From Mobula hypostoma (taxonomy: Eukaryota), in contig NC_086097.1 in NCBI RefSeq assembly GCF_963921235.1, forward strand, positions 108,936,001 to 109,000,000: 64,000 bases of DNA, in the 5' to 3' direction. Made by a program: the position numbers and the translations under genes. Each line of letters opens with the position of its first letter. Within the stretch, counting starts at the first letter, position 1. The notes under the pieces are model-generated. The model had not been told where the DNA came from and did no database searches. It saw only the letters and a list, made by a program, of their open reading frames with translations. Of the stretch, positions 15,359 to 60,486 are shown in pieces.

Positions 15359-16243
15359 CCCTCAGTGGCTATTTTATTAGGTACTCCTGCACAGCTCATT
15401 ATCAGAATCAGGTTTAATAGCACTGGCATATGTCGTGAAATTTGTTATGTGGCAGTAGTACATTGCACTTCATAACAATGAAAACTGTGAATCACAGTAA
15501 GATATGTATATAATTTCAAACATCTAATCTGCCAATCACGTGGCAGTAACTCAAAGCATAAAAGCATGTAGACATGGTTGTGGTAACTTCTACTTTGAAA
15601 AAGGCACACTTGACAACTTCATGCCCAAAGAAACAACCTTATCTCGAACATCAAAACTGATATGTATATACAGAGGCTTTCACAACCCGTACGACATGGC
15701 AGGAACAGGATATACAAAGCACTGGAAGTAAAAAGAACATAAGTAAAACCCCCCATATCCTAATTAGTATTAACTTACTTTTAGTAATGCTCACATTACA
15801 ACAATGGTCAAGAGGTTCAGTTGTTGTTCGACCAAATATCAGAATGAGGAAGAAATGTGATCTGAGTGACTTTGACTGCGCATTATTGTTGGTCCCAGCT
15901 GGACTTGTTTGAGTATCTCAGAAACTGTTGATTTCCTGGGATTTTCACACACAGCAGTCTTTAGAGTTCCCAGAGAATGGTGGGAAAAACAAAACAACAT
16001 CCAATGAGAGGCAGTTTAGGAGCAAAAATGCCTTGTTAAGGAATGAGGTGATAAGGGAACAGCCAGACTGATTCGAGCTGACAGGAAGGCGACAGTGTCT
16101 CAGATAACTATGTATTTCAACAGTGGAGCGCAGAAGAGCATCTCTGAATGCACAACATGCCAAATCCTGAAGTGGATGGGCTACAGCAGCAGAAGACCAC
16201 GCCAGGATCCAGTCCAGTACCTAACCAATGTGGACACTGAGCG
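15359..16243 (+). mobile_element. Non-autonomous Tc1 deletion derivative with two nested insertions
   Basis: TIRs ccctcagtggctattttattaggtac / gtacctaaccaatgtggacactgagcg; transposase N-terminal remnant (QKSISECTT..LKWMGYSSRRP). Confidence 0.85.
15579..15803. mobile_element. Short solo LTR (225 bp)
   Basis: Termini TGTGGTAA...TTACAACA with a perfect 5-bp TSD ATGGT (15574-15578 and 15804-15808), inside the Tc1 derivative. Confidence 0.75.
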
Positions 16244-16244
16244 A

Positions 16245-17340
16245 AAGTTATACATTATACAAGATACAATACAAACAAAAATCACTATCAGAGAAAAATC
16301 AATGGTAGAGCAAGAGGTGGTCCATGAGGTATTCACTGCTGAGGCAGGACAGGGATTGTACAGGTTGGTTAAAGAACCTGATGATCATAAGAAAGTAGCT
16401 TTTCCTAAAACCAGTTGGTATGGCTCTTTGGGCTTCTATACTTCCTGCTGTATGGTAGCAGCAAGGTGAGGGCATGACTCTGATGGTTAAATGTCATTTT
16501 CTTAAGACAGCACCTCCTGTAGATGCTGTCAGTGATGGGAAGGGCTGTACCCATGATGGACTAGACTGTGTCCACAACTCTCTCGAGCCTGTTACGTTCC
16601 TGTTCCATGACATGATGCAACTAGTCAGGATATTTTCAAGAGTACATCTTAGAGGGTTGTTGGAATATTTGGTGACATTCCAAATCTCATTAAGCTTCCA
16701 AGGAAGTCAGGATCATGGTGTTTTGTCTTTGTGATTGTATCAATGGTCCCAGGACAAGGCAGCCAAGATGTTAATGCCAAGGAATTTGAGATCAGGGACT
16801 TTGAGCAGGCGGGTGTAGATCTACCATTGTTCTTTCTTTCTAAGTATGCATAAAAGGCATTGAGCTCATCCAGAAGTGATGTGTCATTGTCGTTTATGGT
16901 ACTTGGCCTCACGTTGTAGGAAGTGCCATGCACGTCCTGCTACAGCTGTCGAGCAAACATCTGTGACTCTAATTTAGTCCGGAATTTGGCGTTTTTGTGC
17001 TCATGATCTACATCCAGATGTCGTAACTGGATTCCTGCATCACCTGTACTAAATGTCACAAGCACAGCCCTGAGGTTCATCTGGGATGTCCGGTTGGGAA
17101 GGACTTGGAATGTTTTGTAGGTACGCAGAAATGCAAGTACTTCTGAAGTTGGTGAGGATTCTGATGTATCCATTCAGATCTGCTGATGAGTCATTGAAAG
17201 TGCCCCAGTGCATCGATTCAAAGCAGTTCTTTGTGTGCTGCTCTGTCTCCTTTGACCATGTCTTCATTGTCCTCTCTGTTAAAGCTGCACTTTTCCGTCT
17301 CTGCCTATAGCAGGAAGAGAAAGCACAGCGAGGTGGTTCG
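16245..17340 (-). mobile_element. Rex1/Babar LINE fragments
   Basis: Minus-strand peptides SLLDELNAFYAY and KTWSKETEQH..NCFES..W..F are typical of the Rex1 ORF. Confidence 0.75.
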
Positions 17341-22180: not shown

Positions 22181-23087
22181 ATAATGCTCTCACTGGGACT
22201 CATATACAAACTTAACTCATTAGCTAACTCTGCTAACGGCCATGTGACAGCAGTGAGAAGGTCACTCATAAACAATGTACGTCTCAGGTCAGTTTGATTT
22301 GGGGTTCAACCAAACAGGAACATTGGGAATTCTGATTAAAGGAACCTCAATTTGAGTCCTGATGAAGGGTCTCGGCCTGAAGCACCCACTGTGCTTCTTC
22401 CTATGGATGCTGTCTGGCCTGCTGTTTTCCACCGGCATTTTGTGTGTGTTGCTCAATTTGAGTGAATGCTGTGTAAATACTGCCCATTCACAATTATCGA
22501 CTGGCAAGAAATAAGAGATTATACACCTTATACAATTATATAGGAAGTATATTTATCAATTTTAGCTTTACCAAACAGTTAATAGGAAAAAGAAATGAAT
22601 GAAAAAAAATGGAAGAGCCCATTACACTTAGATCAGTCTAAATGTGCACATAACCGTTGGAGCTCGTCTCTTCCAAAAGCTGGGTATAACCATTACTCAT
22701 GGTGCTGAATTCTTATTACCAATCGCTGGTAGGACATCCCATCTTGGACTCCTTTATCTTGCAAAGGACTTCTTTTAATAGCGTCTTCCCATTGGATCGA
22801 ATCCTATGGGCATCTCCCCGGTCTTCACTTCTCTACATCTCTGGCCAAAAATTTATGAATCTGACCACTGTCCATCACAAATCTCTCTCTGCGTAACTCT
22901 CTTTAGGACCTTCTTCCGCTCCCACCATCCTGACTGGCTAACACAACATTCCCAAGTTCAACAATGTAGCTCTTTATCTTTAGTCGAAACGAAAACATTC
23001 TACCAGCAGGTCGCACTGATTTACAGAAAACCGTTAAAATGAAATACCTACAGTCACAGCAGTAGAAATCTTAACCAGGGCATTACA
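22181..23087 (-). mobile_element. Probable solo LTR interrupting a Rex1 fragment; contains a Penelope-derived remnant at about 22350-22455
   Basis: Ends in ...gggcattaca. Rex sequence stops near 22175 and resumes at 23088 (tgttcctgaacct). The left terminus is degenerate and no clean TSD is visible. Confidence 0.45.
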
Positions 23088-23203
23088 TGTTCCTGAACCT
23101 CATTGTATGGGTCCTCAGGGCCCTGTAGTGAGAAGGGAGCATAGCCTAGATGGTGGGGGCCCTTGATGATGAATTCTGCTTTCCTGCAATAGTGCTTCAT
23201 GTA

Positions 23204-23771
23204 CAGTTGAAGTTAGCAGCTTGCATACACCTTAGCCAAATACATTTAAGCTCAGTTTTTCACAATTCCTGACATTTAATCCCAGAAAACATTCCCAGCC
23301 TTAGGTCAGTTAGGATCACTACTTTATTTTAAGAATGTGAAATGTCAGAATAATAGTAGAGAGAATGATTTATTTTAGCTTTTATTTCTTTCATCACTTT
23401 CCCAGTGGGTCAGAAGTTTACATACACTTTGTTAGTATTTGGTAGCATTGCCAAATTATTTAACTTTGGTCAAATGTTTTGGGTAGCCTTCCACAAGCTT
23501 CTCACAGTAAGTTGCTGGAATTTTGTTCCATTCCTCCAGACAGAACTGGTGTAACTGAGTCAGGTTTGTAGGCCTCCTTGATGAAAGAAATAAAAGCTGC
23601 AATAAATGGTTCTCTCTACTATTATTCTGACATGTCACATTCTTAAAATAAAGTAGTGATCCTAACTGACTTAAGACAGGGAATGTTTTCTAGGATTAAA
23701 TGTCAGGAATTGTGAAAAACTGAGTTTAAATGTATTTGGCTAAAGCGTATGTGAACTTCTGACTTCAACTG
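23204..23771 (-). mobile_element. Sleeping-Beauty-like Tc1 non-autonomous element with two right-type IR/DR ends
   Basis: TA|CAGTTGAAGT...ACTTCAACTG termini and about 190-bp inverted arms. The minus-strand peptide RRPTNLTQLHQFCLEEWNKIPATYCEKLVEGYPKHLTKVK resembles the SB transposase C-terminus. Confidence 0.9.
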
Positions 23772-25289
23772 CATGTAAAAGTTTCCAGAACATTATGTGA
23801 ACTAGAGTGTGACCAGTGTTCCTTCCTGAGTTGACTAGATTGCTGTTTACTGAGGTCGTGTGTTGTGCTATTGGCTATAGCATGCTCCTGTGGAAGTTGT
23901 TTGAGGATTTGGCCAAGATAGTGAGTTAAATGAAAGGTCAGACATGAAAATTAGTGAGAAACATGGAGGTGAAAGGCAGCAATGAATGAATGGTGGGTTG
24001 CGAGTAATGCTTTGGAAGGAGTGACAACAGTGACAGATGGAATAGAGTAGAATGTTAATTGGATTTCTAGTTGGATTAATAACATTAGCATGAACTCCTG
24101 GAGGGATATAAACGTATCACATTGTTTCTATTCACCATACTAGCATATTTCTTTCTGCATTCTAAACTTGTTATTTTTTTACTCTCTAGTCTAATTTCAT
24201 CTGCCAATGTATAAGTATGTTAGTGGGAACAGGTTAAGCAGGGAAAGACTAGTACCCTTTAGAGACCATAGAGTGGCAATATGTGTGTATAGCTGCAGGA
24301 CAACTATGAGGTTTTATATGAATGTTTCATATTTGCATTCACTTTGGTGAAATTAGAATATTAAAAGAGGGGGGCAATGAAATTCTAAAATGCATTACCA
24401 TTGAAAAGCAGGTAGCATTAGATAGCTTGGCCATCCTAAAGCTGAATAAATCCCTAGATTCTGTTGACGTGCTTCAGGCTGTTGTGACAACCACGGGAAG
24501 AGATTGCTTAGGCTCTAAGAGCAATTTGTAATCTGATCTGGCTACAGTAAAGATGCCAGATAACTAGAGTATAAATCAGATAATTACAGAGTATTGATAT
24601 GATTGTATAAGATCAGATGTGATGCGTTATTGTGGGTATCTGCCTTGTTTTTTCTGCTCAAGACTCAGAATAAAATGATCTCAAGTCCCTTTGGACTTTG
24701 TAATAAAAGTGCACCTAGATGAAGCGGAGAAGATTTTCTTTCTTTTGATTTATTGAAATTTGAAGTGGAATTTTAAAAGAGTCTTGTGATTGTCTTCTCT
24801 GAAGTACTGCAGTCACCCCACTGGTATACCAATTAATTGATTACACGTGGTTCAATTCAGTAAGTAGCTTGCGTTTCACAATTCCTTTCTAAACTGGCCA
24901 TGAAAACAGTAGCAAATTGCAACTTATTTCACTTGGCTGAGTTTGGATGATGAGAACAGTCAGGAGTCACAGCTTTCTGTCATCTTGTTTGGGAGCAGCC
25001 ATCTGGAAAGTGATGACTCACCATGCAAATCTGAAACCTGTTTACACGGTTCTTGGCCCTATGTCAATCCGTGAATGATACTGCTAGGTTTTCTGAAAAG
25101 GGAAAGCTGTGAAAGAGGAATGTGCCACACAGTGTCCAGCCTATAAAACAAAACATCTCTCAGCATCATTACATCTTTCTTTCATGCTGCTCATTGCTGG
25201 TTTCTTTGTTCAGCTTTCATCTTCCCCTTGCATTTGAATTCTGTGTCAGTCATTTTATTAGTCTACTGGAAAAGGGGTTTTCCACTTCC

Positions 25290-33275: not shown

Positions 33276-33835
33276 CACTCAATGACCACTCTAGTAGGTA
33301 CACCTGTACACCTTGTTAATACAAATATGTAATTTGCCAATCATGTGGCTGCTGCACATGGTTACCAGATTAGACATTCAGTGCATAAATGCATGCAGGC
33401 ACAATCAAGACCAAACATCCGAATGGGGAAGAAATATAATCGGAGTGACTTTGACTGTGGAATGGTTGTAGGTCCCAGACAGGGTGGTTTAAGTATCTCA
33501 GAAACTGCTGATCTGGGATTTTCACACACAGCAGTCTCCAGGGTTTACAAGAAAACACATAAAGAAACACCCCAGTGAGTGGCAGTTCTGTGAGGAAAAA
33601 TGCCTTGTTAATGAGTGAGATCAGAGGAGAATGGCCAGACTGCTTTCAGCTGACGTGAAGGCAACAGTAACTCAAGTAATCACACATTACAACAGTGCAG
33701 TGCAGAAGAGCATCTCTGAATGCACGACATGTCAAACCTTGAGGTGGATGGACTACAGCAGTAGAAGACCATGAACAACAGTCGATGACCACTTTATTAG
33801 GTACAGGAGGTACCTAAGATAGTGGCCACAAAGTT
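33276..33835 (+). mobile_element. Non-autonomous Tc1 deletion derivative
   Basis: TA-flanked TIR cactcaatgaccactctagtaggtac; peptide MGKKYNRSDFDCGMVVGPRQGGLSISETADLGFSHTAVSRVY (Tc1 N-terminal helix-turn-helix). Confidence 0.88.
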
Positions 33836-35734: not shown

Positions 35735-35855
35735 TTCCTAATATTGCCAATGCCCCTAATAATTTTATGTACTTTCATCAGGTTTCCCCTCAGCCTCATC
35801 CACTCCAAGAGAAACTAATCAGCTTATGTCCTCATAACTGAAAAGCTGTATCTGA

Positions 35856-36513
35856 GCAACACACACAAGATACTGGTGGAACGCAGCAGGCCAGGCAGCT
35901 TCTACGGGAAGAAGTACAGTTGACGTTTCAGGCCGAGACCCTTCGTCAGGACTAACTGAAAGAATAGATAGTAAGAGATTTGAAAGTGGGAGGGAAGGGG
36001 GAGGGGGAGATCCAAAATGATAGGAGAAGACAGGAGGGGGAAGGATGAAGCTAAGAGCTGAAAAGTTGATTGGCACAAGGGATACAGAGCTGGAGGAGGG
36101 GGAGGATCATGGGATGGGAGGCCTAGGGAGAAAGAAAGGGGGAGGGGAGCCCAGCGGAAGATGGAGGGCAGGCAAGGAGTTATTGTGAGAGGGACAGAGA
36201 GAGAAAAAAGGGGGGGGGGATAATAAATAAATAAATTAGGGACGGGGTAAGAAGGGGAGGAGGGGCATTAATGGAAGTTTGAGAAGTCAATGTTCATGCC
36301 ATCAGGTTGGAGGCTACCCAGACGGAATTTAAGGTGTTGTTTCTCCAACCTGAGTGTGGCTTCATCTTGACAGTAGAGGAGGCCATTGATTGACATATCA
36401 GAAAGAGAATGGGATGTGGAATTAAAACGTGTGGGCACTGGGAGATCCTGCTTTCTCTGGCGGACAGAGCATAGGCGTCGGCGAAACGGTCTCTCAGTCT
36501 GTGTCGGGTCTCC
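35856..36513 (-). mobile_element. Penelope-like element 3' fragment
   Basis: Minus-strand ORF ...ATLRLEKQHLKFRLGSLQPDGMNIDFSNF (GIY-YIG C-terminus), followed by a UTR with a hammerhead core. Confidence 0.92.
35917..35958 (-). ncRNA. Minimal type-I hammerhead ribozyme motif
   Basis: UUAGUC-CUGACGA-AGGgucucggCCU-GAAACGUC-AACUG; core intact, one stem-I mismatch. Confidence 0.75.
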
Positions 36514-36876
36514 TCGACAACATTCTGCTGAACCTTGTCTACTCCTTTTCCAGTGCAATCCCTTCTTTCTTTCAGTGAGGACTCTACAAAATATTACATT
36601 TGCCTGTAAAATATTCTATAAAATTATATCATAACCTCTCTACTTCAGCCAATGAAGGTAAATATACCATATGCCTTTTTCTCCTAATCCATTCTACCTG
36701 CATGAACTCTTGGACTTGTAAGCCAAGGTTCTCCCTGTTCCTCAAAACTACTTTGACCCTTTCAACTGATAGCGTTAATCCTTCTCCACACCTTGTGTAT
36801 ATTGGGACAAAATATAATCTACCATGGGCTCTGTCCATTTTACCGATTTTATAGCTCAGATTACCTTCTTTGGATT

Positions 36877-37145
36877 GGTGGCGTAATGGTTAGCATAATG
36901 CTTTACAGTGCCAGTGACTCAGGTTCATTTCCCACTGCTGCCCATAAGGCGTTGGTATGTTCTCCCCATGACTGCATGGGATTCCTCTGGGTGCTGCAGT
37001 TTGTCCCCACATCCCAAAGATGTAGGGGTTAGTAGGTTAGTGTATGGGTTAGTAGGTTAATGTATGGATTAGTAGGTTAATTGGTCACTTGACTGGTGTG
37101 GGCTCGCTGGGCCGGAAGGGCCTGATATAGTGCTGTATCTCTAAA
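36877..37145 (+). mobile_element. tRNA-derived V-type SINE
   Basis: A-box-like ggcgtaatggttagc and B-box-like ggttcatttccc; core ttctccccatgactgcatggg..cccacatcccaaagatg. Confidence 0.75.
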
Positions 37146-37338
37146 CAACTAAAAATCATTGATTTTCATGCCACTTACTAATCATATTTCCCACATTGAT
37201 TTCCAAATTGTCAATGTATATGGCAAACTGTAAGAGGCCCAGACTTTCAATCATAAACTTATTAAACAATCTTGAAGCAACACACACCAAAGTTGCTGGT
37301 GAACGCAGCAGGCCAAGCAGCATCTCTAGGAAGAGGTA

Positions 37339-37380
37339 CAGTCGACGTTTCAGACCGAGACCCTTCGTCAGGACTAACTG
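37339..37380 (-). ncRNA. Minimal type-I hammerhead ribozyme motif (intact)
   Basis: UAGUC-CUGACGA-AGGgucucggUCU-GAAACGUC-GACUG; stem I AGUC/GACU, GUC triplet, palindromic ACGU in place of stem III. Confidence 0.82.
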
Positions 37381-38706
37381 AAGGAAGAGTGAGTAAGGGA
37401 TTTGAAAGCTGGAGGGGGAGGGGGAGATGCAAAATGATAGGAGAAGACAGGAGGGGGAGGGATAGAGCCGAGAGCTGGACAGGTGATAGGCAAAAGGGGA
37501 TACGAGAGGATCATGGGACAGGAGGTCCGGGAAGAAAGACGGGGGGGGGGTGACCCAGAGGATGGGCAAGAGGTATATTCAGAGGGACAGAGGGAGAAAA
37601 GGGAGAGTGAGAGAAAGAATGTGTGCATAAAAATGAGTAACAGATGGGGTACGAGGGGGAGGTGGGGCCTAGCGGAAGTTATAGAAGTCAATGTTCATGC
37701 CATCAGGTTGGAGGCTACCCAGACGGAATATAAGATGTTGTTCCTCCAACCTGAGTGTGGCTTCATCTTTACAGTAGAGGAGGCCGTGGATAGACATGTC
37801 AGAATGGGAATGGGATGTGGAATTAAAATGTGTGGCCACTGGGAGATCCTGCTTTCTCTGGCGGACAGAGCGTAGATGTTCAGCAAAGCGGTCTCCCAGT
37901 CTGCGTCGGGTCTCACCAATATATAAAAGGCCACATCAGGAGCACCGGACGCAGTATATCACCCCAGTCGACTCACAGGTGAAGTGATGCCTCACCTGGA
38001 AGGACTGTTTGGGGCCCTGAATGGTGGTAAGGGAGGAAGTGTAAGGGCATGTGTAGCACTTGTTCCGCTTACACGGCTAAGTGCTTCCAGGTGAGGCATC
38101 ACTTCACCTGTGAGTCGACTGGGGTGATATACTGCGTCCGGTGCTCCCGATGTGGCCTTTTATATATTGGTGAGACCCGATGCAGACTGGGAGACCGCTT
38201 TGCTGAACATCTACGCTCTGTCCGCCAGAGAAAGCAGGATCTCCCAGTGGCCACACATTTTAATTCCACATCCCATTCCCATTCTGACATGTCTATCCAC
38301 GGCCTCCTCTACTGTAAAGATGAAGCCACACTCAGGTTGGAGGAACAACACCTTATATTCCGTCTGGGTAGCCTCCAACCTGATGGCATGAACATTGACT
38401 TCTCTAACTTCCGCTAGGCCCCACCTCCCCCTCGTACCCCATCTGTTACTCATTTTTATGCACACATTCTTTCTCTCACTCTCCTTTTTCTCCCTCTGTC
38501 CCTCTGAATATACCTCTTGCCCATCCTCTGGGTCACCCCCCCCCCTGTCTTTCTTCCCGGACCTCCTGTCCCATGATCCTCTCGTATCCCCTTTTGCCTA
38601 TCACCTGTCCAGCTCTCGGCTCTATCCCTCCCCCTCCTGTCTTCTCCTATCATTTTGCATCTCCCCCTCCCCCTCCAGCTTTCAAATCCCTTACTCACTC
38701 TTCCTT

Positions 38707-38748
38707 CAGTTAGTCCTGACGAAGGGTCTCGGCCTGAAACATCGACTG
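38707..38748 (+). ncRNA. Minimal type-I hammerhead ribozyme motif (AUC variant)
   Basis: UAGUC-CUGACGA-AGGgucucggCCU-GAAACAUC-GACUG. Confidence 0.72.
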
Positions 38749-39282
38749 CACCTCTTCCTATAGATGCTGCTTGGCCTGCTGCGTTCACCAGCAACTTTGG
38801 TGTGTGTTGCTTGAATTTCCAGCATCTGCAGAATTCCTGTTGTTTGCGTAAACAATCTTGAACCCATCCGCATCTGTTTTAAGCTCTATAGATTATTTGC
38901 TTGACACTTTTGGGTGCAGAAAGTGTGAAAGTTTCAGTGCTTTTAGCATTCATGTGCTGAGCTCTACCATAATAGAGGATGTAAATATTCTTGAGATAGT
39001 CTCCTGTTTAGTTTTCCACTGTTATTCACAATTGGATATGGTAAAATTCCAGAGCTTTAATCTGATCTGTTGCTTCTCTTAGCTCTATCAATTACAATTT
39101 GTGGTTCAGTATATGCAGCTTCAAGCTGGGACCTCATTCTGTATGTCTGGCTTTCTATACTCCTTAATGGCTTTCTATACTCCTTATTGAACTGTGCTGG
39201 ATCCCCAGCTTTATTATAATGATGATGTGAGAAATAGCATGTGAAACTGTGAGGTTATAGATTGTTTTTGGTGCATCTTCTT

Positions 39283-54289: not shown

Positions 54290-57100
54290 GTAGAGGTAGT
54301 CAGCATGGCTTTGTGCGTGGGAGATCATCTCTTACTGATCTGTTTGGGTTTCCTTTGAGCTTTTTGATGAAGTGGCCAAGAAAGTTGATGAGGACCGCAG
54401 GGAAGATATGGTTTACACGGCCCTTGGTTAGGTTCCATATGGCAGGCTGCTCTGGATTGCTGGAATCTAGAGAGAGCTGGCCAATTTAATAGACAGTTGG
54501 CATGATGGTAGAAGGTTGTTTCTCAGACTGCAGGGCTGTGACTAGTGGTGTGCCTCAGGGTTTTGTGATGGGCCTATTGGTGTTTGTCATCAGTATCAAT
54601 GCTTTGGATAGGAATATTCAAGAAACGATTAGTAAGTTTGCAGTTGACAATAAAATAGATGATTATAGTGAACAATGAAAAATGATTTGATAAGCTGAGG
54701 AAGTGTATCAAGGAATGGCAAATGGGGTTTACTTCAGATACCTATGTGGTGTTCCACTTTGGAAGGTCAATTTCAATTCAGATTTTCTTGGTGAATGGCA
54801 GTCCCTGGGGAGTGATGTAGAACAGAAAGTTCTGCAGCACTTGGAATTCAGGTACATGGTTCCCTGAAAGTGGAACCACAGGTAGTGATGAAGTCTTTTG
54901 GCATGCTGACCTTCATAAGTTAGGGCAATGAGTATAAAAATTAGGAGACTGTGCAAAACAGTGGTGAGGCTGCACTTGGAATATTGTGTCCACTTCTGGT
55001 TGCTCTGCTGTAGGAAAGATGTTATTAAACTGGAAAGAGTGGATTTAAAATCTATGAGGATGCTGCAGGGCTTGAGGGAACAGACTTAAAGGGAGAGGTT
55101 GGTCAGGTTAGGACTTTGTTCCTTAGAGGGTAGGAGGATGAAATGTGATTTTATACTGTGCCTATAAAAAGTATTCACCCCCCCCCCCAGCCCTTGGAAG
55201 TTTTCATGTTTTATTACCTTATAACATTGAATCACAGTGGATCTAATTTGGCTTTTTTGACACTGATCAACAGAAAAAGACTCTTTTGTGTCAAAGTGAA
55301 AACAGATCTCTACAAAGTGATGTAAATTAATTACAAATGTAAAACAAAAAATAATTGATTGCATAAGTATTCACCCCCTTCAAGTCAGTATTTAGTAGAT
55401 GCATCTTTGGCAGCAATTATAGCCTTGAGTCTGTGTAGATAAGTCTGTATCAGATTTCAACATCCGGACTCTACAAATTCTCCCAATTCTTCTTTACAAA
55501 ACTGCTGATACTCTGTCAGATTGTATGGGGATCGTGAGTGAACAGCCCTTTTCAAGTCCAGCCACAAATTCTCAGTTGGACTGAGGTCTGGATTCTGACT
55601 TGGCCACTCAAGGACCTTAACTTTGTTGTTTTTAAGCCAATCCTGTATAGCTTTGGCTTTATGCTTAGGGTCATTGTCTTGCTGGCAAACAAATCTTCTC
55701 CCAAGTCATAGTTCTCGTGCAGACTGCATCATGTTTCCCCCTAGAATTTCCCTGTATTTTACTTCATTCATTTTTCTCTCTATCTTCACAGGCCTTCCAG
55801 GGCCTGCAGTAGTGAAGCATCCCCACAGTATGATGCAGCTACCACCATGATTTTAAGTAGGGATGGTATGTTTTTGATGATATGTGGTGTTTGGCTTATG
55901 CCAAACATAGCATTTAGTCTGATGACCAAAATGCTCATTTTGGTTTCACCAGACCATAGAACCTTCTTCCAGCTGACTTCAGAGTCTCCCACATGCCATC
56001 TGGGAAACTCTAGCTGAGATTTCATGTGAATTTTTTTTCAGCTGTGGCTTTTTCTTTGCCACTCTCCCATAAAGCTGCAACTGGTGAAGCACCCAGACAA
56101 CAGTTGTATATGCAGTCTCTCCTATCTCAGCCACTGAAGCTTGGAATTCCTCCTGAGTTCTCAAAGCTCTATTACGGCTTCCCTCACTAGCCCCCTTGCA
56201 CTGTCACTCAGTTTTTGAGGACGGCCTGCTCTAGGCAGATTTACAGCTGTGCCATATTCTTTCCATTTCTTGATGATTGACTAACTGTGCTCCAAGGGAT
56301 ATTCAGTGACTTGGAAATTTTCTTGTATCCATCTCCTGACTTGTGCTTTTCAATAACCCTTCCGCAAAGTTGCTTTTGTCTTCATGGTGTAGTTTTTGTC
56401 TGGATACCAACTCACCGGTAGTTGGACCTTCCAGATACAAGTGTATATTTACAACAATCATGGTGACTGCACATGGTGATCTCCATTTAACTAATTATGT
56501 AACTTCTAAAACCAATTGGCTGCACCAGTGATGATTTGGTGTGTCATATTAAAGGGAGTGAATACTTACGCAATCAGTTATTTAGTGTTTTATATTCGTA
56601 ATTAATTTAGATCACTTTATAGAGATCTGTTTTCACTTTGATATGAAAGAGTAATTTTCTGTTGATCAGTGTCAAAAAAGCCAAATTAAATCCACTGTGA
56701 TTCAATGTTGTAAAGCAATAAAACATGAAGCCTTCCAAGGGGGCTGAATACCTTTTTATAGGCACTTTAGATGTGTGTAAAATCCTGAGGGACATAGGGT
56801 GGATACACTTGGTCTTTTTCACCAGAGTTTGGGTTGCAAGAACTAGAGGGCAGAGGTCAAAGGTGAGAGGACCTTGCGTGGCAATGTTTTTTACACAAAG
56901 TGTGTTATCTATGTGGAATCAGCTGCCCCAATGAAGTGTTTGAGGCAGGTACAATAACAACTTTTAAAAGACACTTGGATAGGTACACGCATTGGAAAGA
57001 TTTAGGCAGTTGTGGACCAAACCCGAGCACCTGGGACATCTTGGTCAGCACGGAGAAGTTGGGCCAAAGGGCTTGTATCTTTGTTATATAACTCTGTGAC
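54290..57100 (+). mobile_element. Old CR1 LINE split by a Tc1 transposon
   Basis: SQHGFVRGRS, GVPQG and VRLHLEYCVHFW lie before 55155; the sequence resumes at 56768. Confidence 0.85.
55156..56767 (-). mobile_element. Near full-length (1.6 kb) IR/DR-type Tc1 transposon with pseudogenised transposase
   Basis: TA on both flanks. Long inverted repeats of about 230 bp, each with outer and inner aagtattcacccc direct repeats. Minus-strand WKKVLWSGETK motif; frameshifts. Confidence 0.93.
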
Positions 57101-60265: not shown

Positions 60266-60486
60266 TTGTTAATGAGAGATGTCAGAGGAGAACAACCAGA
60301 CTGGTTCAAGCTGATGGGAAGGCGACAGTAACATTAATAACCACACATTACAACAGTGGTGTGCTGAAGAACATCTCTGAACACACAACACATCGAATCT
60401 TTAAGTGGATGGGCTACAACAGCAGAAGATACTTTGGAGCATCTTTATTAGGCAATGGAGGAAATTAATAAAGTGACCACTGACTA
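60266..60486 (+). mobile_element. Right half of the Tc1 deletion derivative
   Basis: Homologous to 33605-33835. Confidence 0.8.

What the first reader, a model, noticed from the sequence alone, without database searches (positions are those of the whole stretch)
23202..23773. Sleeping-Beauty-like Tc1 element built from two right ends: horizontal-transfer candidate
Seen: a 568-bp element whose two arms are the same end. The left arm includes the inner DR (cagtgggtcagaagtttacatacac) and the last approximately 50 codons of transposase; the right arm lacks the inner DR. From memory, both the arm DNA (gaaagaaataaaagctg...ggattaaatgtcaggaattgtgaaaa...aaatgtatttggctaa) and the peptide closely match the salmonid Sleeping Beauty right IR/DR and C-terminus (RRPTNLTQLHQLCQEEWAKIHPTYCGKLVEGYPKRLTQVK). 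Such non-coding similarity between a teleost element and a probable chondrichthyan implies horizontal transfer (inference). The right-right, three-DR structure is also informative for SB end requirements.
Basis: partly seen in the sequence, partly recalled or inferred. Interest (0 to 1): 0.7.

Follow-up and report, generated by a model that had tools for sequence, protein, structure and literature searches.

The report
Sleeping Beauty relic in a ray
A dead, folded-back piece of the Sleeping Beauty jumping gene of bony fishes sits in a ray genome and is far too similar to have been inherited, so this family most likely jumped between bony fishes and rays.

Summary
Window 23204-23771 is a 568-bp element made of two Sleeping Beauty (SB) right ends, back to back. 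One arm has both direct repeats (DRs) plus transposase codons 292-340. The other is the outer 193 nt only, joined at a 2-nt microhomology. Against two full-length SB-type elements from metagenome contigs, the arms are 92-94% identical to the right end and about 70% to the left end; dS of the coding tail is 0.05-0.09. A LINE in the window best matches a stingray, and a Mobula protein carries the same SB subfamily, so horizontal transfer between ray-finned fishes and the ray lineage is likely (about 0.9). The donor need not be a salmonid. A 2022 survey found no SB in cartilaginous fishes, but this scan already noted the transfer on other DNA of this genome. The arms differ by 9%, so this is old and no assembly artefact. 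Most likely one end was rebuilt from the other during break repair, as known for mariner MITEs. Copy number, the empty site and the ray family's own left end were not tested, so the element does not yet inform SB end requirements.

The parts
23202..23203 (.). TA flank (left target-site copy)
23204..23771 (.). whole 568-bp non-autonomous SB-clade Tc1 derivative, two right ends pointing outward
23204..23431 (-). complete right IR/DR (228 nt), 92.5% to the right IR of L004
23204..23230 (-). outer DR of the complete arm; 4 arm-private substitutions
23403..23427 (-). inner DR core, identical to the SB-type inner DR; the only inner DR in the element
23432..23578 (-). 3' tail of the transposase gene, SB residues 292-340; premature stop at 23456-23458, one 3-nt gap, natural stop at 23432-23434; no catalytic or DNA-binding domain
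23579..23580 (.). junction: 2-nt microhomology (TG) shared by the coding tail and the short arm
   Evidence: junction printout
23579..23771 (+). short arm: outer 193 nt of a right IR, lacking the inner DR; 93.8% to the right IR of L004
23745..23771 (+). outer DR of the short arm; 2 arm-private substitutions (a third lies one base inside it)
23772..23773 (.). CA flank; read as a TA target copy with one T>C change (inference)

Best explanation
A dead, non-autonomous derivative of a Sleeping Beauty-clade (Tss1-type, IR/DR) Tc1 transposon in a myliobatiform ray. SHOWN: the anatomy; 92-94% identity to an SB-type right end; a ray-like host context; a second ray record (Mobula) with the same subfamily residues. 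INFERRED (about 0.9): the family crossed horizontally between ray-finned fishes and the ray lineage, most simply fish to ray. INFERRED (about 0.68): the structure came from one ordinary left-right element while the family was active. Its left about 1260 nt were lost and replaced by an inverted copy of the outer 193 nt of the right IR, by a template switch during repair of a transposase-made break, sealed at a 2-nt microhomology. It may have formed where it lies (about 0.40) or formed elsewhere and been moved in trans (about 0.28; see rivals). It makes no protein and has decayed neutrally since, about 4-5% per arm.
For: Right-end identity: 349 of 377 and 181 of 193 aligned bases to L004; left IR only about 70%. 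L002's ORF is SB proper: near-identical to SB100X and the SB DNA-binding domains; L002 and L004 are 1639 bp against 1638 for SB (PMC6362248). Coding tail dS 0.053 (1.5 of 29.2 sites, L004) and 0.090 (2.5 of 29.5, L002); upper bound on pS 0.23-0.27, below the dS<0.5 ceiling used in HTT screens (PMC12400950). The IR middle is not constrained: left and right IR of one element are 73.6% alike; SB versus SB-like TIRs 33% (PMC9777934). Host: window LINE best named hits Hypanus sabinus 90%, Leucoraja 77%, Callorhinchus 57-73%; no teleost named among the 120 listed of 2919. Best named hit of the peptide is a Mobula hypostoma protein, 90%, the only row with all 6 residues scored as diagnostic among 158 hit rows from 179 proteins; window, Mobula and one unnamed protein group at 95/87. 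SB clade: 107 ray-finned species, one mollusc, no chondrichthyan. Early origin: the arms share only 4 differences from L004 and have 9 and 8 private ones. Precedent: seven mariner MITE sublineages with one end replaced by the other (PMC4161770).
Against: No ray full-length element or ray left IR was obtained: no chondrichthyan name among the 120 listed of 3128 hits or among the cluster members listed; no SB left-IR body in the window. No ray-teleost host-gene dS was computed here; saturation is taken from general knowledge. dS rests on about 29 sites. The host of L002/L004 is not recorded in what I saw; they are salmonid-type by sequence. The tree uses 68 columns, 40 for the window, with 13 of 24 inner branches open. 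F, P, A and E of the 6 residues also occur in Prochilodus-type elements, so they are not ray-specific. The right flank is CA, not TA. A 2-nt microhomology is weak evidence of a mechanism. In the mariner precedent the 3' part was always the one replaced, the mirror of this case.
Confidence: 0.6

Rival explanations
1. The right-right, three-DR element is a member of an amplified MITE-like subfamily moved in trans by the ray SB transposase. This is a special case of the best explanation, with transfer accepted.
For: Both termini are exact and flanked by TA and CA in an AT-rich, near-palindromic context. End-replaced mariner derivatives are among the most successful MITEs. A randomly met copy is more likely to come from an amplified family (inference).
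Against: All four DRs are reported necessary, and the enhancer half-DR is in the left IR only (PMC7827188). Pairing starts between the two inner DRs; an IR-only SB substrate moved at about 10% efficiency; no Tdr1 MITEs were found in zebrafish (PMC5224488). No second copy in the 64-kb window. No look-alike among the scan's earlier notes, a weak test.
Confidence: 0.25
2. Two separate SB copies lay close together in inverted order with their left ends inward, and one deletion removed both left parts and the DNA between them.
For: The arms diverged almost independently (9 and 8 private changes, 4 shared). The two flanks are not the same dinucleotide. Close long inverted repeats are prone to central deletion (general knowledge).
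Against: Needs two nearby insertions; no other SB piece lies in the window. The flanks join into a plausible single AT-rich target with one T>C change.
Confidence: 0.14
3. The ray SB family natively carries right-type IRs at both ends, and this copy is a plain internal deletion.
For: Internal deletion with microhomology is the commonest route to short copies. SB-clade TIRs were scored at 44-415 bp, with the 3' TIR overlapping the ORF (PMC9777934), which may hide such forms; the table could not be read. No ray left end was seen here.
Against: Left and right IRs of the SB-type references differ by about 26-30%, far more than the 6-8% between ray and reference, so their common ancestor was already asymmetric. 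Losing the left IR loses the enhancer.
Confidence: 0.11
4. No horizontal transfer: vertical descent, fish or vector DNA in the assembly, or an assembly fold-back artefact.
For: Host-gene dS was not computed here and no reads were laid on the locus. Elasmobranch genomes evolve slowly (general knowledge).
Against: Non-coding identity of 92.5% and dS under 0.1 would have to survive on the teleost side too. The distribution is patchy. The arms differ at 17 of 193 sites, whereas a fold-back artefact would be identical. The element is 6-8% from SB-type DNA, carries a stop and a gap, and has exact ends in host DNA. An independently annotated Mobula chromosome-scale record has the same subfamily.
Confidence: 0.08

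Closest known systems
Sleeping Beauty and its natural salmonid-type Tss1 family (IR/DR Tc1, DD34E; the 'SB' clade of Jia et al. 2022, PMC9777934)
   Same: CAGTTGAAGT termini, right IR of about 228 nt with outer and inner DR, transposase C-terminus; 92-94% DNA identity to SB-type right ends
   Different: No left IR, no half-DR enhancer, three DRs instead of four, only 49 codons of the gene; host is a ray, where the 2022 survey found none; own subfamily residues shared with Mobula
End-replaced mariner MITEs of Drosophila (Dromar7, 11, 28, 36; Wallau et al. 2014, PMC4161770)
   Same: One end replaced by an inverted copy of the other, giving long near-perfect inverted arms in a short non-autonomous element
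   Different: There the 3' part is replaced by the 5' part, the parent has simple short IRs, and the copies are shown to have amplified; here it is the mirror case in an IR/DR element and copy number is unknown
Tc1 transfers between teleosts and lampreys (DTSsa1 group; Kuraku et al. 2012, PMC3516227)
   Same: Tc1 element 92-98% identical across a deep vertebrate split, with patchy distribution
   Different: A different Tc1 family; PCR was negative in cartilaginous fish; a parasite-host link was proposed there, and no route is known here
ZB-like Tc1 in one chondrichthyan (PMC9777934)
   Same: An IR/DR Tc1 of a mostly teleost clade found in a cartilaginous fish
   Different: Different clade (SB versus ZB group coding identity 52-54%, TIR 20-30%)

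Membership tests
Sleeping Beauty / Tss1 clade (by descent) | Transposase sequence within the SB clade (internal coding identity over 80%; SB versus SB-like about 61%) | tested here: met
   138 of 149 coding bases to L004 (92.6%); 31 of 40 residues to SB100X; only the C-terminal tail is present
Sleeping Beauty / Tss1 clade (by descent) | Right IR of about 230 nt with outer and inner DR | tested here: met
   211 of 228 bases to the L004 right IR; inner DR core identical
Canonical SB transposon substrate | Distinct left IR with the half-DR enhancer | tested here: not met
   Both arms about 70% to the left IR and 92-94% to the right
Canonical SB transposon substrate | Four DRs, two per end | tested here: not met
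   Three DRs; the short arm ends 6 nt before the inner DR
Tc1/mariner insertion | TA target-site duplication | tested here: inconclusive
   TA on the left, CA on the right; no empty site available. One-sided non-TA junctions also occur in SB integration (PMC5801840)
Autonomous Tc1 (DD34E) | Intact ORF of about 340 aa with DDE triad and paired DNA-binding domain | tested here: not met
   Only residues 292-340, with a stop and a 3-nt gap
MITE | Short, non-coding, TIR-bounded derivative of an autonomous family | tested here: met
   568 bp with 193-nt inverted arms
MITE | At least two copies with the same breakpoint at different sites | not testable with these tools
   No host genome held and no read data obtained; one copy in the window; junction motif absent from prokaryote contigs (uninformative)
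Horizontally transferred TE (dS criterion) | TE dS below 0.5 | tested here: met
   dS 0.05-0.09 on about 29 sites, upper pS bound 0.23-0.27; criterion from PMC12400950
Horizontally transferred TE (dS criterion) | TE dS below 99.5% of core-gene dS between the two host lineages | not tested
   No ray-teleost orthologue DNA at hand; saturation assumed from general knowledge
Horizontally transferred TE (dS criterion) | Patchy taxonomic distribution | tested here: inconclusive
   Published survey: none in chondrichthyans as of 2022, sampled genomes not visible; here one named ray record; shark, skate and chimaera genomes could not be searched

The most novel reading that the evidence does not exclude
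After jumping from bony fishes into rays, Sleeping Beauty gave rise to an amplified miniature family built from two right ends with only three transposase sites and no enhancer, so the four-DR, inner-DR-pairing and MITE-suppression rules worked out for SB in cell culture did not hold for the natural ray transposase. Such invasions would also account for part of the Tc1/mariner expansion peculiar to skates and rays.
Probability: 0.25. Interest if true: 0.7.

Novelty: new member of a known kind. Interest (0 to 1): 0.42.

Why it matters
Tc1/mariner transfer among fishes is common (PMC7070016), so the process is ordinary. But it extends the family of a widely used gene-transfer tool into cartilaginous fishes, where the one dedicated survey found none. 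[quoted passage not shown] The ray subfamily also supplies natural variants of the SB C-terminus. If the three-DR right-right form proves multicopy, it is a natural test of the SB ordered-assembly model. If it is single-copy, it is an ordinary repair scar.

Tried and rejected
No host genome is held and no read data were obtained for this locus, so copy number, junction sharing and the empty site are open. Run search: four runs of one sample hold 0.72-0.86 of the sampled words of 22400-24600 and may be the source. Four runs of a second organism and study hold 0.37-0.46, which flanks alone could supply. No hits: plasmids, viral contigs, prokaryote genome contigs with the junction motif and a subfamily motif, Rfam, Pfam for the 40-aa peptide. 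Motif searches of the Jia supplement gave 0 hits but are uninformative: the rows seen were coding sequences only and long rows are cut; Table S1 could not be read. L001 holds only a left end and was not used for identity; L003 is the same contig as L002, so there are two references, 99.3% alike, not independent. Rejected: assembly fold-back (arms differ at 17 of 193 sites). Rejected: autointegration (the junction is neither a transposon tip nor a TA). Rejected: a 6-bp CATGTA target duplication (not a Tc1 feature; TA plus one transition explains it). Rejected: a structured RNA (folding is just the inverted arms). Rejected: late duplication of one arm (the arms would share more changes). Paper searches for SB or Tc1 transfer into cartilaginous fish and for right-right SB ends found no direct report. 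Repbase, Dfam, subscription journals and bioRxiv supplements were not searchable.

Full report
1. Observation. The element runs from 23204 to 23771 (568 bp), with TA before it and CA after it. Its arms, 23204-23396 and 23579-23771, are 193 nt and 91% complementary (E 5e-75). The long arm continues into an inner DR (23403-23427) and, on the minus strand, a transposase tail (23578-23432) with a premature stop and a 3-nt gap. The 40 residues before the stop match SB100X residues 292-331 at 31 of 40.

2. Reference elements. A 19-nt DR motif from the window found three metagenome contigs (four loci). Two hold full 1639-bp elements, 99.3% alike. The ORF of L002 is 340 aa and nearly identical to the SB100X catalytic domain and the SB DNA-binding domains; SB itself is 1638 nt (PMC6362248, part 1 of 3 read). 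Their host is not recorded in what I saw; I call them salmonid-type from sequence. Window 23204-23580 matches the right 380 nt of L004 at 349 of 377 aligned bases plus a 3-nt gap. The short arm matches at 181 of 193. Against the left IR the arms reach 70.1% and 69.7%, and the left and right IRs of L004 are 73.6% alike. Both arms are therefore right ends. The junction has a 2-nt microhomology at 23579-23580.

3. Host. A LINE ORF in the window has Hypanus sabinus (90%) as best named hit, then Leucoraja (77%) and Callorhinchus (57-73%), with no teleost named among the 120 listed of 2919 hits. The best named hit of the SB peptide is a Mobula hypostoma TTC33 isoform that ends in an SB tail (90%). 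Of 158 hit rows from 179 proteins it alone shares all six residues I scored, and one unnamed protein shares five. Four of the six also occur in Prochilodus-type elements and are probably ancestral. In a 68-column tree of 28 rows, window, Mobula and that unnamed protein group at 95/87, apart from the salmonid and vector cluster (91/90); 13 of 24 inner branches are open. The host is a myliobatiform ray by inference. An earlier AI note on this genome says devil ray and reports the same transfer (e1-7808042); I count that as a lead, not as support.

4. Horizontal transfer. Non-coding identity is 92.5%. Coding dS is 0.053 against L004 and 0.090 against L002, on about 29 synonymous sites, with an upper pS bound of 0.23-0.27. 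At least 12 of the 28 differences from L004 look family-level: 4 are shared by both arms and 8 give residues also seen in Mobula. The ray ancestor was thus roughly 96% identical to the salmonid type (inference). The IR middle is not under tight constraint, given the 26-30% left-right difference and the 33% TIR identity between SB and SB-like clades (PMC9777934; abstract, passages, Methods, first part of Results and Discussion read). That survey found SB in 107 ray-finned species and one mollusc, and none in Chondrichthyes. Its species table could not be read, so I cannot say which cartilaginous genomes it covered. I did not compute host-gene dS; saturation between rays and teleosts is general knowledge. 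The published ceiling of dS<0.5 is met (PMC12400950, passages). Against: no ray full-length transposase appeared among the 120 listed of 3128 hits or among the cluster members listed. Direction and route are not shown; fish to ray is the simplest reading, and the donor need not be a salmonid. I put transfer at about 0.9.

5. Origin of the right-right form. The arms carry 9 and 8 private changes and share 4. The structure therefore formed when the element was still close to the family ancestor, and it is no fold-back artefact. Four routes fit. (a) Repair at one element: after a transposase-made break, copying switched to the right IR and was sealed at the microhomology, with no need for the product to move (about 0.40). 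(b) The same product was formed elsewhere and moved in trans (about 0.28). (c) Two neighbouring inverted copies were fused by a deletion (about 0.15). (d) A natively right-right ray family lost its middle (about 0.12). These probabilities are my judgement. For (b), SB rules are unfavourable: four DRs are reported necessary and the enhancer lies in the left IR (PMC7827188, passages). Pairing starts at the two inner DRs, an IR-only substrate moved at about 10%, and truncated Tdr1 copies keep over 400 bp between the IRs (PMC5224488; abstract, passages and two Results sections). That two right ends work worse than two left ends is recalled from Izsvak et al. 2002, which I did not read; PMC4505599 (passages) says only that SB prefers two copies of one end. 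End replacement is known in seven Drosophila mariner MITE sublineages, always the 3' part replaced by the 5' part (PMC4161770, passages). The CA flank is most simply a T>C change, though one-sided non-TA junctions occur in SB integration (PMC5801840, abstract and Results). Seven of the 17 private changes fall in the outer 28 nt (p=0.007, a post hoc test; 6 of 17 in 27 nt gives p=0.023). This resembles the end damage described for Tdr1, but the terminal 10 nt are intact.

6. What it does now. Nothing that I can see: no catalytic or DNA-binding coding sequence, both outer DRs mutated, no Rfam match in the window. It is a fossil.

7. Known versus new. By descent it belongs to the SB/Tss1 clade. 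It fails the tests for a canonical SB substrate (left IR, four DRs) and for an autonomous element. MITE status depends on copy number, which I could not test. Tc1 transfer among fishes is common (PMC7070016, PMC3516227 and PMC2198921, passages). Searches found no report of SB in rays. Term look-ups found no Tc1 or TcMar mention in two batoid and elasmobranch genome preprints (supplements closed) and no 'horizontal' in PMC12361510, which reports the skate and ray Tc1/mariner excess (passages). Repeat databases and subscription journals were not searchable, so the ray family may already be catalogued.

8. Verdict. Observation confirmed; interpretation partly supported. A real SB-clade relic in a ray, probably acquired horizontally, with an unusual but precedented rearrangement. 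New member of a known kind, interest 0.42. If the three-DR right-right form is multicopy (0.25), interest would be about 0.7.

Noticed in passing
window about 55155-56768, minus strand: A second, unrelated full-length Tc1 element (about 1.6 kb, 227-nt inverted repeats at 85%, degenerate ORF about 56360-55388, 40-46% to SB-type proteins, best 60% to unnamed P0275). Possibly another invading family.
   Followed up: partly
window about 15830-16260, 33409-33810 and 60266-60429: Three short, mutually 77-80% similar pieces of a third Tc1-like family; weak PF01498 hit below the curated cut-off.
   Followed up: partly
protein P0002 (Mobula hypostoma XP_062905703.1), residues about 162-235: A predicted TTC33 isoform ends in an SB transposase tail, i.e. 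a predicted exon inside an SB copy of the same ray subfamily; may be an annotation artefact or low-level exonisation.
   Followed up: partly
window 23204-23231 and 23744-23771: 7 of 17 arm-private substitutions cluster in the outer transposase binding sites (post hoc p=0.007), while the inner DR core is unchanged.
   Followed up: partly
window 23198-23203 and 23772-23777: The same six bases (CATGTA) flank both ends; read here as a TA duplication with one T>C change in a near-palindromic target.
   Followed up: partly
L002 27-1593: A different complete Tc1 (65-nt inverted repeats, 33-37% protein identity to SB-type) abuts the SB element, with only a TA between them.
   Followed up: no
proteins P0106 and P0145: Short proteins labelled Aeromonas cavernicola match the window's ray LINE (90% over 55% of the query for P0106), suggesting fish DNA in that bacterial record (inference).
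   Followed up: no
window 35855-38811: Three related copies (about 80%) of a GIY-YIG-bearing repeat, probably Penelope-like, two of them inverted relative to the third.
   Followed up: no
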